In this document: positions 946-33,746 of the stretch, in pieces | Layout of the letters: each line of letters begins with the position of its first letter | Numbering within the stretch: the first letter of the stretch is position 1 | Source of the DNA: a virus | Taxonomy: Duplodnaviria > Heunggongvirae > Uroviricota > Caudoviricetes | DNA: 35,491 nucleotides | Direction: 5' to 3' (one strand) | IMG/VR virus record: IMGVR_UViG_2671180778_000014 | Span: 1 to 35,491 of that record | Notes under the pieces: model-generated | Seen by the model: only the letters and a program-made list of their open reading frames with translations | Databases searched by the model: none | Told to the model about the DNA's origin: nothing | Translations under genes and position numbers: made by a program

Positions 946-961
946 TGACTTACTAACCAAT

Positions 962-1001
962 GCCCCTATCGTTATAATACGCGGTAGGGGCGTTTTTGTT
1001 T
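962..1001 (+). terminator. rho-independent terminator
   Basis: GCCCCTATCG / CGGTAGGGGC stem followed by GTTTTTGTTT. Confidence 0.5.
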
Positions 1002-1010
1002 GGAAATGGT

Positions 1011-30331: not shown

Positions 30332-30387
30332 GTTACATCCTCTTTACAAATCTAGGTCAAATAGGTTCAAAATTGTCAAGTGCGATA

Positions 30388-30416
30388 ATCATAAAAAAGT
30401 CAAAAAATTTTGTCAA
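30388..30416 (-). promoter_or_regulatory. sigma70-type promoter (TTGACA - 17 nt - TATGAT)
   Basis: minus-strand TTGACA at 30416-30411, 17-nt AT-rich spacer, TATGAT at 30393-30388; further TTGACA boxes nearby. Confidence 0.5.
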
Positions 30417-30451
30417 TACCCCTTGACAAGATGCCAAAGGGTTGACCTAAC

Positions 30452-30919
30452 TTACAGCATATCTAAGCCTTCATCGTAACCGTAGAAGCTATTGTGAGAA
30501 GAAAAACAGATTGGTGCGTAGTCTTCGTCTTCCTCGTCTTCTTCATCTTGTTCTGGGGCTTCCTGAGCGGTTTCTTTGCCGTAGTTAAACATTGCTTCAT
30601 CCAGTTCATAGACAGTAACGAAGCTACCTAAATCAATGTCACCTGACCGGACTTCGAAAGGCAGATCATCACGAACAATAATTGCTGGTAGATTCTGGTA
30701 TTTCAGGCGATCTTCATCGGTGAAGCAGTTAACAACGATGGTAGGACGTTTATTTCTTCCGAAAACATACCATGCACTAGAGAAATGGGATTCATCGGTA
30801 TTGTAAAGGATGTTATAACCACGTTCACGGAACATCTTCATTAACTTGTCATTGTGAAAGCTATCTGCATCCAGACCCAGAAGGATAAAAGGAGTAGTGG
30901 TAGTCATTTTGTGGTTCAT
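30452..30919 (-). CDS. hypothetical acidic protein
   Basis: ATG at 30919 preceded by GAGGA with 8-nt spacer; C-terminal EQDEEDEEDEDY acidic tail. Confidence 0.5.
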   Translation of the reverse strand: MNHKMTTTTPFILLGLDADSFHNDKLMKMFRERGYNILYNTDESHFSSAWYVFGRNKRPTIVVNCFTDEDRLKYQNLPAIIVRDDLPFEVRSGDIDLGSFVTVYELDEAMFNYGKETAQEAPEQDEEDEEDEDYAPICFSSHNSFYGYDEGLDML

Positions 30920-30965
30920 AGTGGTAATCCTCAAAAAGAAAGTTAATCAAAGTAATTCTGATATT

Positions 30966-30972
30966 ATTTATA
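30966..30972 (-). promoter_or_regulatory. candidate -10 element (TATAAAT) of recurring promoter motif
   Basis: minus-strand CTCTTATAAATAATA about 50 nt upstream of the start at 30919. Confidence 0.3.
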
Positions 30973-31224
30973 AGAGAAAATTCTTGATGATTTTGGAAGG
31001 GATGGATTCAGTCGGGCTAAAGCCCTCCTTCATAGATTTGATTAAAAGACCAGCAAACGTAACTCGGATCTTATAGTTAATATAGTTATCTTTGAAGAAA
31101 TAATAATCAGGAAGCAATTTCAGCAACCGCAGGTTGCGATCCCGAAGGGATAACCAATACCTTTCTAGAAAGTGATTGTTACTCACTTCGTTCGTTTACT
31201 AGAATCAGTTATCATCTAGTATTA

Positions 31225-31595
31225 AATCCCTTTCTAAGAAAATCCTTTCAAAAGTGAGTGAACGCCGTAGGCGTGAACGTGAGCGAAGCGAACTATCCAA
31301 TCCCTTTCGAATCCTGCTTGCAGGTCTTAGAAGGTGTTGGTGGGCGCTACGCGCACGGCTACGCCGTATTCTTTTTGCGAGATCTTTCTTGAACGTAGTG
31401 AGAGAAAGCGAGCAAAAAGGAGAACGTTAGTTCGAATTTTATATTCTATGGTCTGTTGGGTATAATCCCTTTCAAGATCATACACTTACGTGATTGAAGT
31501 GTAGGGTTAGTGTAGGTGTGTAGGTTTCATAGTGTAGGTTTGAGAGTGTTATAGTGTAGGTTTACTGGCTAGTGTAGTGTAGGCCAATCCCTTTA
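31225..31595 (+). repeat. dispersed direct repeats of the 10-mer AATCCCTTT(C/A)
   Basis: copies at 31225, 31299, 31464 and 31586, a degenerate copy at 31241, and an inverted copy at 35108-35117. Confidence 0.6.
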
Positions 31596-31617
31596 AAGTG
31601 TAGGTGTGTAGTGTAGG
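31499..31617 (+). repeat. iteron array of the heptamer GTGTAGG (about 10 copies, mostly GTGTAGGTT)
   Basis: copies at 31499, 31510, 31518, 31532, 31554, 31577, 31598, 31611 plus GTGTAGT variants at 31572 and 31606, followed by an AT-rich stretch. Confidence 0.7.
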
Positions 31618-31813
31618 TTTTCTATCAAAAATTTTGACAAAAATTATTGTATATTATTTAACCAAAAAATCACCAAAAAGCGGCGTAAATTCATGATTTA
31701 AAAGAAATTTTCAAAAGATCTCCGTGCCATAATAGGTTATAAAGGTTGATAATCATTATTTGCCATTTTCAAACAAAAATTTTGATACACTTTTCTCGCT
31801 TAGATCATTGGTA

Positions 31814-31842
31814 TTGACAAGTGTCAAGAACTATTTTATACT
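31814..31842 (+). promoter_or_regulatory. consensus sigma70 promoter (TTGACA - 17 nt - TATACT)
   Basis: TTGACA at 31814-31819, 17-nt spacer, TATACT at 31837-31842. Confidence 0.6.
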
Positions 31843-31849
31843 TTTTCTC

Positions 31850-32007
31850 ACTGGTAGGGGTTGAAATTTTCCAAACAATCCACATATAGATGATAAGCAT
31901 GATTTTTTCGTGTATAAATACATGCATGAAAAATGATTGTTCACTTCTGAAAACCTCCTGACTCACTGTTAACTCATACAGCACTGGTTAGATACACAGT
32001 GCTTTTT
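31850..32007 (+). ncRNA. candidate small non-coding RNA (promoter-to-terminator unit)
   Basis: about 160 nt between the consensus promoter and an intrinsic terminator (AGCACTG ... CAGTGCT + TTTTT at 31980-32007); no RBS-supported ORF. Confidence 0.3.
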
Positions 32008-32131
32008 CGGTTGAATATTGTACGGATTGATTAATTATTAATCTTCTCTTTAGCAATTCGTGCTCCCTCTGATCGGATATACAGTGGTTTTACAGAGTTT
32101 TTGAAAATCATTTTTATAAATAGAATTGTTC

Positions 32132-32150
32132 AGAGCGAAAAGCTCTTTTT
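32132..32150 (+). terminator. terminator/attenuator hairpin
   Basis: AGAGC-gaaa-GCTCT followed by TTTTT, 35 nt upstream of the 60-aa gene. Confidence 0.4.
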
Positions 32151-32186
32151 AAAAAAATCATTATTCCAGATTTAGGAGGATTCAAG

Positions 32187-32369
32187 ATGGCACGACCTGT
32201 TAAGTTCACTCGTGAAATCGTTTTAGAAATGGCAAAGCGTTATTTTGAACTGACACCTGATGTAGTGATGGGTGATTGGTTTAAAGGTGAAGGCATTGAT
32301 CAATCAACCTTCCATAAACTTTTAAAGAAGTATGAAATTCGCGTAAAGATTACCGCCGAGGTGTGGTAA
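32187..32369 (+). CDS. small HTH protein (paralog of the 77-aa protein)
   Basis: 60 aa; ARPVKFTREIVLEMAKRY ... GIDQSTFHKLLKKY parallels RGRPARFNAEQMADIAYAYY ... GISIAQFYKNMKK; RBS AGGAGG. Confidence 0.5.
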   Translation: MARPVKFTREIVLEMAKRYFELTPDVVMGDWFKGEGIDQSTFHKLLKKYEIRVKITAEVW

Positions 32370-32413
32370 TAACCTTTGACTGAGAATTATATGATGGCTT
32401 TAAAAATAAAAAA

Positions 32414-32441
32414 GCCTCCCTGTTGGCGCAAGGAGGCTTTT
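32414..32441 (+). terminator. rho-independent terminator
   Basis: GCCTCC-ctgttggcgcaa-GGAGGC followed by TTTT. Confidence 0.5.
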
Positions 32442-32486
32442 GATATGAACAATTAAAACTAACACAGCATTCAGGAGTATTTATAA

Positions 32487-33488
32487 ATGAAAAATTCTAA
32501 GCGCATCACCTTCAACCTGTTCATTAAATCCAACGGCAAACTGAACATTACCGTTATGGAAGGTAAAGCAAGCAAACAAGACAAATCCTTTGAAGTAGTA
32601 TCCGGTAAGACTCTGACCGAAATGCGTCAGAATGCTGGCATCAAAGACGGTGCTGAATGGCAGATCACTAACCGTTTCGACAAACGTCACGTTAAACCTA
32701 CACTGGTAGAAGGTGAATCCGTTTATTGCTTCGCTCGTGCTGTTAAAGCCGATGAAACTTACTATCTCGCTGTTATTAAAACTGCTTCCGGTTTCCGTGC
32801 TGTAATGCATCACAAGAGCAAGCGTAACGAATACGGCGTAGAGACCCAGGAAGTTGCAAAACGCTTCCGTACTGTTGCTACTGAATCCACTGTAAAAGAT
32901 GTTTCTGGTACTGTTAACACCGCTAAAGGCGGTTCCTTCTACAACCACGCATTACAGGTTACTTCCTCCTTCTTCTGCAAAAAAGAAGCACAGAAAGAAG
33001 TTGCTCCGGTAGTAGTTGAAGAAGTTAAAGAAGAAGTAGCAGTGGTTGAATCTTCCGAAGTTGAAGCACTGAAAGCACGCATCGCTGAACTGGAAGCTGA
33101 AAACGCATCTCTGAAAGCTGAACTGGCAGCACAGGAAACCACTTTCGAAGTAGCAGCGGTTGAAGTTGAAGCAGTTGAAGAAAAATCCATTGATGAAGAA
33201 CTGGAAGAACTCCTTAACTATCGCTGGGGTAACGGTGAAGAAGTAGAACAGGAAGAACAGAAAGAAGCTGATCCGGTAGTAGTTCCGGTTGAAGCAGAAT
33301 CCGCACCAGTTACTAACTTTGAATCCCTGCGCAATAACTTTATGGCTAAATTCAAAACCACTTGGGAAGATACCGAAGAAGAACAAGAAGAGATTGATGT
33401 AAACGAAGACGAGATCCGCGAAGCACAGATGGCACTGCATGACGCTATCTATGACACCAACTACAGCGCCTACGCATACGCAGCTTAA
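32487..33488 (+). CDS. acidic coiled-coil protein with host-optimal codon usage (function unknown)
   Basis: 333 aa; N-terminal ~170-aa Lys/Thr-rich domain, then EALKARIAELEAENASLKAELAAQ coiled coil and acidic tail; codons are almost exclusively E. coli high-expression choices (CTG, CGT, GGT, GCT, TCC, AAC, GAA), unlike the rest of the window. Confidence 0.6.
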   Translation: MKNSKRITFNLFIKSNGKLNITVMEGKASKQDKSFEVVSGKTLTEMRQNAGIKDGAEWQITNRFDKRHVKPTLVEGESVYCFARAVKADETYYLAVIKTASGFRAVMHHKSKRNEYGVETQEVAKRFRTVATESTVKDVSGTVNTAKGGSFYNHALQVTSSFFCKKEAQKEVAPVVVEEVKEEVAVVESSEVEALKARIAELEAENASLKAELAAQETTFEVAAVEVEAVEEKSIDEELEELLNYRWGNGEEVEQEEQKEADPVVVPVEAESAPVTNFESLRNNFMAKFKTTWEDTEEEQEEIDVNEDEIREAQMALHDAIYDTNYSAYAYAA

Positions 33489-33503
33489 TAGAGGGGTGAA
33501 TCT

Positions 33504-33746
33504 ATGATGAATCAAAACAAAGAATTTCTGGGTAACTTGATGTTAGAAATTACCAAAATGAAAGAAAGAATGGTAGCGATGGAATCAGAGATTAAAACTC
33601 TTAAAGCTGATAATAAGGCGTTGAGAAAGTCCTTAAAGCTGATTGATGAGACTAATGCTGTTATGATGGATCATGTATTCCCTGAGTGGCGAAATGAAAC
33701 TAAACCTACACAACATAAGAAACCTACACTTCGAATTGTTGCATAA
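33504..33746 (+). CDS. small coiled-coil protein
   Basis: 80 aa; RBS GAGGGGTG; heptad-like KERMVAMESEIKTLKADNKALRKSLKLI. Confidence 0.5.
   Translation: MMNQNKEFLGNLMLEITKMKERMVAMESEIKTLKADNKALRKSLKLIDETNAVMMDHVFPEWRNETKPTQHKKPTLRIVA

What the first reader, a model, noticed from the sequence alone, without database searches (positions are those of the whole stretch)
31814..32150. Promoter-to-terminator unit without a convincing ORF: candidate small RNA
A consensus sigma70 promoter is followed about 140-160 nt downstream by an intrinsic terminator (31980-32007). The only ORF in between (23 codons) lacks an RBS. A second hairpin with T-run (32132-32150) lies just before the next gene, so the region could encode one or two small RNAs or an attenuator leader.
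Basis: seen in the sequence. Interest (0 to 1): 0.4.

Follow-up and report, generated by a model that had tools for sequence, protein, structure and literature searches.

The report
Terminator-studded leader RNA of a prophage
A strong promoter in the control region of an uncharacterised E. coli prophage most likely makes a short, folded, non-coding RNA that mostly stops at built-in terminators before the first gene; it is conserved and unannotated, but it resembles known phage leader and attenuator RNAs.

Summary
A near-consensus sigma-70 promoter (31814-31842) is followed by a hairpin plus U-run at 31980-32007 (T1). A second hairpin plus U-run sits at 32132-32150 (T2), 36 nt before the next gene, here called p60 (60 aa). 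No conserved ORF lies in between.

The window is an E. coli/Shigella prophage, found in 37 of 5426 complete E. coli genomes, and nothing is annotated in this region. About 25 distinct relatives keep the 31625-32160 module at 85-98% nucleotide identity, even where p60 is only 53% identical.

Substitutions in three hairpins (H1, H2, T1) preserve pairing, by G.U-compatible or compensatory changes, on the + strand only. Salmonella and Edwardsiella relatives keep the same layout:
- a palindromic consensus promoter (TTGAC-N4-GTCAA), usually followed by an early terminator that is sometimes non-homologous;
- a T2-type hairpin just before p60, present in all 23 variants.

Best reading: this is the promoter-proximal part of a roughly 340-nt structured leader of the p60 operon with tandem attenuators. 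The ~155-nt RNA is the main terminated product.

A trans-acting sRNA role is possible. However, RNA content is mosaic between relatives and no conserved target was found. There is no Rfam match. I rate it a new member of a known kind, of moderate interest.

The parts
31814..31842 (+). Promoter P. The -35 TTGACA lies inside the palindrome TTGACAAGTGTCAA (31814-31827), followed by a 17-nt spacer and the -10 TATACT (31837-31842). The predicted start is about 31849-31850.
   Evidence: Searches identify it as the best promoter of the intergenic region. Both hexamers and the TTGAC/GTCAA half-sites are kept while the 4 central bases vary, in E. coli and Salmonella relatives. The transcription start is inferred.
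31857..31883 (+). H1, the 5' hairpin GGGGUUG / CAAUCC(A/C)C with a 12-nt variable loop.
   Evidence: One search shows A-to-G (U.G) in 6 sequences and U-to-C (G.U to G-C) in 1, all of which preserve pairing on the + strand only. The same stem occurs with unrelated loops in X-type E. coli leaders (placed just before T2) and in Salmonella L113-L116.
31904..31933 (+). H2, a 12-bp hairpin (UUUUUCGUGUAU / AUGCAUGAAAAA) of -10.7 kcal/mol.
   Evidence: Searches give the fold. Two pairs change on both sides in L017/L018/L070 (G.U to U-A, U-A to C-G). H2 is absent from Salmonella L113-type leaders.
31931..31952 (+). Invariant tract AAAUGAUUGUUCACUUCUGAAA, predicted to be unpaired.
   Evidence: It is identical in all 21 distinct W-type sequences and has one change in Salmonella L109. 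It is missing from L029/L107 and L113-type leaders. Its function is unknown.
31980..32007 (+). T1, an intrinsic-terminator-like hairpin with U5 that would end a ~155-158-nt RNA.
   Evidence: One search gives -11.0 kcal/mol. The base pair A-U changes to G-C in 4 sequences and to G.U in 1, and C.A breaks occur in 2. Strong non-homologous terminators replace it in L029 and L107 (-17.5 and -21 kcal/mol, z about -4). It has decayed, with no U-run, in Salmonella L109.
32006..32091 (+). Conserved interval after T1. It holds hairpin H3 (GUACGGAUUG 32020-32029 / CAAUUCGUGC 32054-32063; optional outer stem 32006-32013 / 32069-32077), the palindrome GATTAATTATTAATC (32029-32043), and the near-invariant CTTTAGCAATTCGTGCTCC (32048-66). 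An alternative reading is a T1-like hairpin CC(A)CUG/CAGUGG plus U4 at 32066-32091.
   Evidence: Searches show 97-99% of cells paired against at most 59% when partners are slid. All changes are one-sided and G.U-compatible. The outer stem is not kept in Salmonella. Whether these elements act as RNA or as DNA sites is unresolved.
32132..32150 (+). T2, the hairpin AGAGC-GAAAA-GCUCU plus U-run, 36 nt before the p60 start codon.
   Evidence: One search finds a hairpin plus U-run at this position in all 23 distinct variants. Stems run 5-7 bp, one variant has A-to-G giving G.U on the + strand, one has an inserted G-C pair, and the stem is unrelated in Edwardsiella L105. Energies range from -6.7 to -11.8 kcal/mol.
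32174..32369 (+). Shine-Dalgarno AGGAGG (32174-32179) and the p60 gene (32187-32369), the first gene downstream of the leader.
   Evidence: The family occurs in E. coli, Salmonella and Edwardsiella and is always annotated as hypothetical. The AlphaFold2 model is a three-helix bundle with only weak HTH-like fold matches.
32409..32441 (.). T3, a strong 13-bp hairpin between p60 and the 333-aa gene (p333).
   Evidence: It is kept with different stem sequences in Salmonella L110 and L113. It is absent in L107 and L108, where the gap is 35 nt.

Best explanation
The unit is the promoter-proximal part of a long (about 340 nt), structured, non-coding leader of the prophage's rightward operon. That operon encodes p60, a small three-helix probable DNA-binding protein, then p333 and p80.

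Proposed sequence of events:
1. Host sigma-70 RNA polymerase starts at a near-consensus promoter. Its -35 element lies inside a conserved TTGAC-N4-GTCAA palindrome, presumably an operator for an unidentified regulator.
2. The nascent RNA folds the 5' hairpin H1 and then H2.
3. Most polymerases stop at the intrinsic terminator T1, releasing a ~155-nt RNA.
4. Polymerases that read through transcribe a further conserved, structured interval and meet T2 just before the p60 ribosome-binding site.
5. Only the remainder make p60 mRNA, and T3 limits expression of the genes after p60.

On this view the short RNA is chiefly the product of attenuation, which sets or gates operon expression. It may also have acquired a trans function.

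Shown: the sequence elements, their conservation, strand-specific preservation of pairing, and the absence of a conserved ORF.
Inferred: the transcription start, actual termination at T1 and T2, their efficiencies, and whether any factor regulates them.
For: Promoter:
- It is the best promoter of the 1.25-kb gene-free region, and no comparable sigma-70 promoter lies between T1 and p60.
- The same palindromic consensus promoter is the best promoter upstream of p60 in Salmonella relatives: 12/12 in L113, and 11/12 in L110, where it lies 99 nt before the ATG with only T2 between.

Terminators:
- A T2-type hairpin plus U-run lies 30-38 nt before p60 in all 23 distinct variants, including a non-homologous stem in Edwardsiella.
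- An early terminator follows the promoter within about 65-160 nt in four of five palindromic-promoter leader types: T1 in W and L113; the non-homologous T1'' in L029 and L107, with two compensatory pairs and z about -4; and T2 itself in L110.

Conservation and structure:
- The module 31625-32160 is 85-98% identical in about 25 distinct sequences, although p60 drops to 53% amino-acid identity.
- For H1/H2/T1, 92% of cells are paired against at most 54% when partners are slid. Compensatory changes occur in H2 and T1, and G.U-type changes in H1.
- Pairing-preserving changes continue after T1, with 99% of cells paired. This fits transcription beyond T1.

Coding:
- The ORF at 31890 is 23, 19, 14 or 8 codons long in relatives.
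Against: - No transcript data exist. T1 (10-nt loop, U5) and T2 (5-bp stem, -6.7 kcal/mol) are moderate to weak by sequence and fail the tool's terminator criteria.
- T1 is weakened in some relatives: a C.A mismatch in L021 and L073, an interrupted U-run in L005 and L073, and no U-run in Salmonella L109.
- Covariation is thin because sequences are 85-98% identical. Most changes are one-sided, and the column-shuffle control is uninformative for the T1-T2 interval.
- Several conserved elements between T1 and T2 could be DNA-level protein sites, or an activator-dependent second promoter for p60. These are the palindrome GATTA-N5-TAATC, CTTTAGCAATTCGTGCTCC, the TACAG-N6-TACAG repeats and TTATAAATA. 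A second promoter would let T1 be a full stop.
- In X-type E. coli relatives the palindromic promoter is missing, and tandem consensus promoters sit 450 nt upstream.
Confidence: 0.5

Rival explanations
1. The P-to-T1 RNA is an autonomous trans-acting small RNA. It would be an end product that base-pairs with phage or host mRNAs, for example through the invariant unpaired tract 31931-31952. p60 would be transcribed separately.
For: - It has the classic sRNA anatomy of strong promoter, hairpins, a predicted single-stranded tract and a terminator.
- A 22-nt tract is invariant in 21 distinct sequences.
- Conserved repeats and a TATAAA-like box between T1 and T2 could form a separate activator-dependent promoter for p60 (inference).
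- Precedents exist for promoter-proximal terminated phage RNAs that act as sRNAs: StxS (PMC7547250) and IsrK (PMC4825925).
Against: - No conserved target was found. The CCUCCU:SD(p60) pairing, the AUGAUU:AAUCAU boxes and the 11-nt match of the H1 loop to the integrase ribosome-binding site all fail to be kept in relatives.
- Duplex energies to phage translation-initiation regions are no better than for shuffled RNA.
- RNA content between promoter and terminator is mosaic. H2 and the invariant tract are absent in Salmonella L113-type leaders, H1 is absent in L107/L109, and the 3' half is replaced in L029.
- The T1 tail has only 5 U.
- Host targets could not be tested.
Confidence: 0.22
2. H1 and H2 form a cis-acting processive-antitermination RNA, analogous to HK022 put. 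Such an RNA would make polymerase that starts at P resistant to T1, T2 and T3, so the terminators would stop only foreign or unmodified transcription.
For: - Two stem-loops lie directly downstream of an early-type promoter, followed by three terminators in series before and within the operon.
- H1 is kept in three leader types with different loops.
- No N- or Q-like protein was recognised among the regulatory-region proteins scanned.
Against: - H1 and H2 are separated by 20 nt.
- H2 is absent in L113-type leaders, and both are absent in L107 and L110.
- In X-type leaders H1 lies downstream of the first terminator-like hairpin.
- There is no Rfam hit and no sequence comparison with put was possible.
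- If the terminators were always read through, it is hard to see why non-homologous early terminators recur.
Confidence: 0.08
3. The RNA provides RNA-based immunity in the manner of P4 CI, P1 c4 or N15 CA. A leader-derived RNA from a constitutive promoter would pair with its own operon's nascent transcript. That pairing would force termination or block translation and so maintain lysogeny.
For: - The module recombines as a self-contained cassette, independently of every neighbouring protein allele.
- No CI-like repressor was recognised among the regulatory-region ORFs scanned.
- The phage carries Rha/antirepressor-type genes.
Against: - There is no match to the Rfam C4 family or any other.
- The internal complementary boxes are not conserved.
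- No tRNA-like fold was found.
- The -35 palindrome argues for a protein regulator.
Confidence: 0.06
4. There is no functional RNA. On this view conservation reflects DNA-level sites in a replication or regulatory region (operators, iteron-like boxes, IHF sites, origin), and the promoter-like and terminator-like sequences are incidental.
For: - The region adjoins an iteron array (8 copies of GTGTAGG; 0 of 100 shuffles reach that count).
- It is dense in palindromes.
- The 5' arm of H1 resembles an iteron core.
- Many conserved blocks show no covariation.
Against: - The helices contain G.U pairs, and substitutions are tolerated only on the + strand.
- U-runs follow the hairpins on the + strand only.
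- Non-homologous terminators occupy the same positions in relatives.
- The consensus promoter is kept, with hexamers conserved and spacer bases variable.
Confidence: 0.12

Closest known systems
Lambdoid PR'-tR' short transcript (lambda 6S RNA; StxS of Stx phages, PMC7547250)
   Same: A strong promoter is followed within about 200 nt by an intrinsic terminator, giving a short non-coding RNA as a by-product of termination control of a phage operon. That by-product can acquire sRNA function.
   Different: - There is no sequence or Rfam similarity.
- No Q-like antiterminator was recognised.
- The downstream genes are a 60-aa probable DNA-binding protein and iteron-linked proteins, not lysis or structural late genes.
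- Two or three terminators lie in tandem.
- The promoter carries an operator-like palindrome over its -35, so it may not be constitutive.
IsrK of the Salmonella Gifsy-1 prophage (PMC4825925)
   Same: A prophage promoter with a proximal terminator yields a short RNA and, by read-through, a long mRNA isoform of the same locus.
   Different: In IsrK the short form pairs with the long form to activate translation. Here the candidate short-to-long complementarities are not conserved among relatives. There is no homology.
P4 CI / P1-P7 c4 / N15 CA leader-derived immunity RNAs (Rfam C4 family; recalled from knowledge)
   Same: They are non-coding RNAs made from the leader of an early or antirepressor operon of a temperate phage, and they control premature termination or translation of that operon.
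   Different: There is no match to the Rfam model, no conserved repeated complementary boxes, no tRNA-like fold, and the target operon differs.
HK022 putL/putR antitermination RNAs (recalled from knowledge)
   Same: Stem-loops are transcribed immediately downstream of an early promoter and upstream of terminators.
   Different: The spacing differs (a 20-nt linker), H2 is not universal, and H1 sits after a terminator-like hairpin in X-type leaders. No functional or sequence test was possible.

Membership tests
Any curated RNA family (Rfam 15, including C4 antisense RNA, known enterobacterial/prophage sRNAs and leaders) | Covariance-model score at or above the family's gathering threshold | tested here: not met
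   There were 0 hits at gathering thresholds in the whole window and in 7 related loci. In E-value mode over 30900-32500, the only hit inside the unit is snoU13 at 14 bits, E = 5.6, which is noise.
Bacterial intrinsic (Rho-independent) terminator | G+C-containing hairpin immediately followed by a U-run on the transcribed strand | tested here: met
   T1 has a 7-bp stem (4 G-C), U5, and -11.0 kcal/mol. T2 has a 5-bp stem (3 G-C), U5 counting the closing U, and -6.7 kcal/mol. Both fail the tool's stricter loop or tail limits. U-runs occur on the + strand only, and hairpin plus U-run is kept in relatives. Termination itself was not tested.
Sigma-70 promoter | -35 and -10 hexamers near consensus at 16-18 bp spacing, conserved in relatives | tested here: met
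   It scores 11/12 with a 17-bp spacer. The hexamers are kept while spacer positions vary, and Salmonella relatives score 12/12 and 11/12. Promoter activity was not tested.
Lambdoid PR'-tR' / Q-antitermination unit (6S RNA, StxS) | Q-family antiterminator gene upstream and late (lysis/structural) genes downstream of the terminator | tested here: not met
   The regulatory-region ORFs scanned with Pfam, PHROGs or NCBIfam gave no antiterminator family; most structural-block ORFs were scanned with PHROGs only or not at all. The downstream genes are p60, p333 and p80, and the structural genes lie on the opposite strand.
Lambdoid PR'-tR' / Q-antitermination unit (6S RNA, StxS) | Strong promoter followed within about 200 nt by an intrinsic terminator, with no ORF between | tested here: met
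IsrK-type dual small/messenger RNA | The short isoform base-pairs with the read-through isoform at a conserved site | tested here: not met
   Complementary boxes exist in the window (31899-31908 with 32152-32161; 31929-31938 with 32106-32115; CCUCCU with the p60 SD). The downstream partners vary freely in relatives without compensation.
P4 CI / P1 c4 / N15 CA immunity RNA | tRNA-like or cloverleaf RNA with boxes complementary to repeated sites in the same operon | tested here: not met
   There is no Rfam C4 hit, ARAGORN finds nothing, and no conserved complementary repeats exist.
HK022 put-type antitermination RNA | Two adjacent stem-loops just downstream of the promoter that act in cis on RNA polymerase | tested here: inconclusive
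   H1 and H2 exist, but they are 20 nt apart and are not both present in all leader types. Action on RNAP is not testable here.
Hfq-dependent sRNA | Terminator hairpin with a long (7 or more) U tail plus an A/U-rich single-stranded Hfq site; Hfq binding | tested here: inconclusive
   The T1 tail has only 5 U. A/U-rich linkers are present. Hfq binding is not testable with these tools.

The most novel reading that the evidence does not exclude
The 31625-32160 cassette could be a self-contained RNA-level switch for a family of E. coli, Salmonella and Edwardsiella prophages. No CI/Cro-, N- or Q-like regulator was recognised in this family. Either the terminated leader RNA acts on its own operon (RNA immunity), or H1 reprogrammes RNA polymerase (a put-like, protein-independent antitermination). 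Interchangeable leader types (W, X, L113, L107, L110) would then define immunity or regulatory specificities.
Probability: 0.12. Interest if true: 0.65.

Novelty: new member of a known kind. Interest (0 to 1): 0.4.

Why it matters
If confirmed, this would be the first regulatory element defined for a widespread but uncharacterised lineage of low-GC (about 41%) enterobacterial prophages. In this lineage the regulatory-region proteins (p60, p160, p110, p333, p80, p201) have no recognisable family.

The leader, its operator-bearing promoter and its tandem terminators offer a way into how these phages control the p60-p333 operon. p333 co-occurs with the iteron array, so the operon may serve replication or the lysis-lysogeny decision.

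Promoter-proximal terminated phage RNAs have repeatedly turned out to modulate host physiology, as StxS and IsrK do, so an abundant ~155-nt prophage RNA in E. coli lysogens would be worth testing. On its own it adds an example rather than a new principle.

Tried and rejected
1. Known RNA family. Rfam gathering and E-value searches of the window and of 7 related loci found nothing, and ARAGORN found nothing.

2. Close cultured or plasmid relatives. blastn of the region against INPHARED phages and PLSDB plasmids found nothing. The best TerL match in phages is 43.6%. A DNA-pattern scan of GTDB species representatives gave 0 hits.

3. Coding potential. The 23-codon ORF is frameshifted to 19, 14 or 8 codons in relatives and lacks an SD. 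No other ORF of 15 or more codons is shared.

4. Anti-SD model. CCUCCU (31955-31960) pairs with the p60 SD in the MFE fold of the full leader. Relatives have UCCCCU or UCCCUU opposite GAGGAA or AGAGGA SDs without compensation. Rejected as a conserved feature.

5. P4/IsrK-like internal complementary boxes (AUGAUUUU with AAAAUCAU). These are present in the window, but the downstream boxes are not conserved.

6. H1 loop pairing with the integrase ribosome-binding site. An 11-nt perfect match exists to 996-1006. The target is invariant in 24 loci while the loop's central bases vary (CC, CG, CA, CT, AG), and 11-mer hits are no more frequent than chance (shuffle mean 2.9, maximum 6; 6 observed).

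7. Global duplex search against 38 phage translation-initiation regions. The best energy, -30.6 kcal/mol, is weaker than the shuffled-sRNA mean of -33.8, so this is uninformative.

8. Minus-strand RNA. The same helices would carry C.A mismatches at the many G.U positions, and no U-runs follow them.

9. Linkage of the module to a neighbouring protein allele. None was found. p333/p80 track the GTGTAGG iterons instead.

10. p60 function by fold. The model is a three-helix bundle with pLDDT 78 and no significant PDB match (best E = 1.4).

Full report
**What is there**

The finding lies in a 1.25-kb gene-free region (30935-32186) between a leftward 155-160-aa ORF and a rightward 60-aa ORF, here called p60 (32187-32369).

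- The promoter is TTGACA-17-TATACT at 31814-31842, scoring 11 of 12. It is the top hit of the local scan and of my relaxed scan of the whole intergenic region.
- Its -35 element is the left half of a 14-bp palindrome, TTGACAAGTGTCAA.
- T1 (31980-32007) is a 7-bp stem, a 10-nt loop and U5, at -11.0 kcal/mol.
- T2 (32132-32150) is a 5-bp stem, a GAAAA loop and a U-run, at -6.7 kcal/mol. It lies 36 nt before the p60 ATG, which has a strong AGGAGG Shine-Dalgarno.
- The 23-codon ORF (31890-31961) exists and has no SD.

By sequence statistics alone it is weak. Two promoters of 11/12 or better occur in the window against 1.19 expected from shuffles. Neither hairpin meets the scan tool's terminator limits.

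**Context**

The window is a temperate tailed-phage genome, present as a prophage in E. coli.
- It carries a large serine integrase (1011-2690), and structural genes on the minus strand: tape measure, fibres, a fused protease-capsid protein, portal and a gpA-type TerL.
- It also carries two Rha-family genes and a Nu1-like small protein.
- The 601-bp region around the finding occurs in 37 of 5426 complete E. coli genomes, always on the chromosome.
- In strain PRO_A-1412-6M-A_ESBL it is 100% identical, next to a truncated hicB, and PGAP annotates nothing across 30935-32186.
- No INPHARED phage or PLSDB plasmid matches the region. The best TerL relative among cultured phages is 43.6% identical.
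- p60, p333, p80, the 160-, 110- and 201-aa ORFs and others have no Pfam, PHROG or NCBIfam family.

**Conservation**

I collected relatives from three sources: p60 homologues in IMG/VR, a DNA-pattern scan of IMG/VR and metagenomes, and exact-protein look-ups. Together they gave about 25 distinct sequences carrying the same module, which I call W-type. It spans 31625-32160 at 85-98% nucleotide identity.

The module is better conserved than its gene. In L019-L025, p60 is only 53-55% identical in protein while the leader is 86-91% identical in DNA. It also has sharp recombination borders at about 31621 and 32160.

Other E. coli relatives (X-type; L003, L004, L006-L016) replace it with different sequence. 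They still keep the T2 hairpin, the ribosome-binding site and a copy of hairpin H1.

**Non-coding**

The ORF starting at 31890 is 23, 19, 14 or 8 codons long in relatives, because of 1-2-nt indels. No other ORF is shared.

**RNA structure and strand**

Three local hairpins are predicted between P and the T1 U-run:
- H1, 31857-31883
- H2, 31904-31933
- T1, 31980-32007

On 21 distinct sequences, 92% of pair cells are standard pairs, against at most 54% when the 3' partners are slid by 1-3 columns.
- H2 has two pairs changed on both sides.
- T1 has A-U changed to G-C in four sequences and to G.U in one.
- H1 has A-to-G and U-to-C changes that give U.G and G-C.

These wobble-type changes, and the many G.U pairs, work only on the + strand. 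The U-runs also follow the stems only on that strand. RNAalifold on its own prefers a long-range alternative for the 5' end, so the 5' fold is not settled.

H1 recurs with unrelated loops in X-type E. coli leaders and in Salmonella L113-L116, again with G.U-to-G-C variation.

Downstream of T1, a hairpin (32020-32063, plus an optional outer stem) is 99% paired, with only G.U-compatible one-sided changes. A T1-like hairpin plus U4 at 32066-32091 fits the data equally well. In Salmonella the outer stem is not kept, whereas several sequence blocks are:
- GATTA-N5-TAATC
- CTTTAGCAATTCGTGCTCC
- the TACAG repeats
- TTATAAATA

Part of this interval may therefore act as DNA sites.

**Deeper comparison**

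p60 homologues occur in Salmonella enterica and Edwardsiella tarda. I fetched 12 such loci.
- The Salmonella loci have 1.3-1.6 kb without called genes (one 33-aa call in L107 aside) upstream of p60; in Edwardsiella the gap is about 0.5 kb.
- The palindromic consensus promoter (TTGAC-N4-GTCAA ... TATAAT or TATGAT) is present in all the Salmonella loci. It is the best promoter of the region in the two I scanned: 12/12 in L113, and 11/12 in L110, where it is only 99 nt from the p60 ATG.
- A T2-type hairpin plus U-run lies 30-38 nt before the ATG in all 23 distinct variants. Stems are 5-7 bp with varied loops, and the stem is unrelated in Edwardsiella.

Between promoter and T2 the content is mosaic:

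| Leader type | Content after the promoter |
|---|---|
| W | H1, H2, invariant tract, T1 |
| L113 | H1-like hairpin, T1 (about 95 nt) |
| L029 / L107 | H2, then a different, strong terminator (-17.5 / -21 kcal/mol, z about -4, two compensatory pairs between the two) |
| L109 | GTGTAGG boxes, H2, invariant tract, and a T1 that has lost its U-run |
| L110 | T2 only |

What recurs, then, is a strong operator-bearing promoter, an early terminator, T2 and p60. A particular RNA sequence does not recur.

**Interpretation**

This pattern fits a leader with tandem attenuators better than a sequence-specific trans-acting sRNA. There is no comparable promoter between T1 and p60. T3, a 13-bp hairpin after p60, continues the terminator series.

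I therefore read the ~155-nt RNA as the main prematurely terminated product of the p60 operon leader (confidence about 0.5). The steps from sequence to actual initiation and termination are inferred.

A trans role (about 0.2) remains open. A 22-nt tract (31931-31952) is invariant in all W-type sequences, and there are precedents for by-product RNAs acquiring function (StxS, PMC7547250; IsrK, PMC4825925). However, every candidate pairing I tested failed the conservation test.

The put-like antitermination model, the P4/c4-like RNA-immunity model and the DNA-sites-only model are less likely, for the reasons given under the rivals.

**Classification**

I rate this an unannotated, conserved member of a known kind: a phage promoter-proximal leader or attenuator RNA. 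It has no homology to any curated family. Interest is moderate. It offers a practical route into the regulation of an unstudied prophage lineage, but as far as the evidence goes it is not a new principle.

Noticed in passing
window 31499-31617: An array of 8 same-strand GTGTAGG boxes (iteron-like) lies just upstream of the module; 0 of 100 shuffles reach the window total of 13. Across 25 relatives, p333 and p80 (32487-33746) co-occur with this iteron type and not with the leader module (L011 has iterons and p333 without the W module; L017 and L018 have the module without either). This suggests p333 or p80 is the iteron-binding (replication?) protein. GTGTAGG boxes also occur inside or beside the p60 promoter in X-type, L109 and L113 leaders.
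   Followed up: partly
L003 3290-3581 (X-type E. coli relatives): An alternative control region carries about 11 copies of TTCAGGGGCAAAAAT, 3 GTGTAGG boxes and two overlapping perfect consensus promoters (TTGACA-17-TATAAT twice). Further downstream it has five TAACA repeats ahead of TTATAAATA, then H1 and T2. It looks like a second regulatory specificity type of the same phage family.
   Followed up: partly
window 30340-30430 (minus strand): The only other promoter in the window scoring 11/12 or better is TTGACA-17-TATGAT, starting at 30416 on the minus strand, upstream of the 110-aa/Rha/terminase operon. It is surrounded by five TTGAC(A) boxes (TTGTCAA, TTGACAA, TTGACTT, TTGACAA, TTGACCT). 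These share the half-site of the palindrome over the -35 of the finding's promoter, so one regulator may control both.
   Followed up: no
window 31646-31750: This segment upstream of the promoter is conserved at 78-80% even in Salmonella relatives. It includes an extended -10-like box (TGCTATAAT in most relatives, TGCCATAAT in the window at 31726-31734) on the + strand, and a TACAAT box on the minus strand (31651-31646). It may hold divergent promoters of a switch region. Two TCAAAAATTTTGA palindromes flank it at 31625 and 31773.
   Followed up: no
window 32029-32123: Several DNA-level motifs are kept from E. coli to Salmonella between T1 and T2: the palindrome GATTA-N5-TAATC with a variable centre, the near-invariant CTTTAGCAATTCGTGCTCC (two copies in X-type), direct repeats TACAG-N6-TACAG, and TTATAAATA. 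The repeats ahead of a TATAAA box resemble an activator-dependent promoter layout such as CII-type. If that is real, p60 would have a second promoter.
   Followed up: no
window 31156-31598: Five dispersed copies of AATCCCTTTC(T/A)A lie in the left half of the intergenic region, along with a 25-nt near-palindrome at 31143-31190. Their function is unknown.
   Followed up: no
window 960-1010: A hairpin plus T-run (GCCCCTA...TAGGGGC-GTTTTT) sits directly before the ribosome-binding site of the serine integrase gene. It is essentially unchanged (at most single-base differences) in 23 of the 24 related loci, and sequence further upstream falls into two main types, so integrase expression also appears to be gated by a terminator.
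   Followed up: partly
whole window: At 41% GC, this prophage lineage of E. coli, Shigella, Salmonella and Edwardsiella has no recognisable CI/Cro, N/Q or replication proteins in Pfam, PHROGs or NCBIfam. It has no close relative among 50,697 deposited phage genomes. In one E. coli genome it lies next to a truncated hicB, near yncJ and rlhA.
   Followed up: partly
window 32204-32217: The 5' coding region of p60 contains the 12-bp palindrome TTCACTCGTGAA. It matches 12 of 14 positions of the invariant tract of the leader (GTTCACTTCTGAAA, 31939-31952) in the same orientation. This may be chance or a shared protein site.
   Followed up: no
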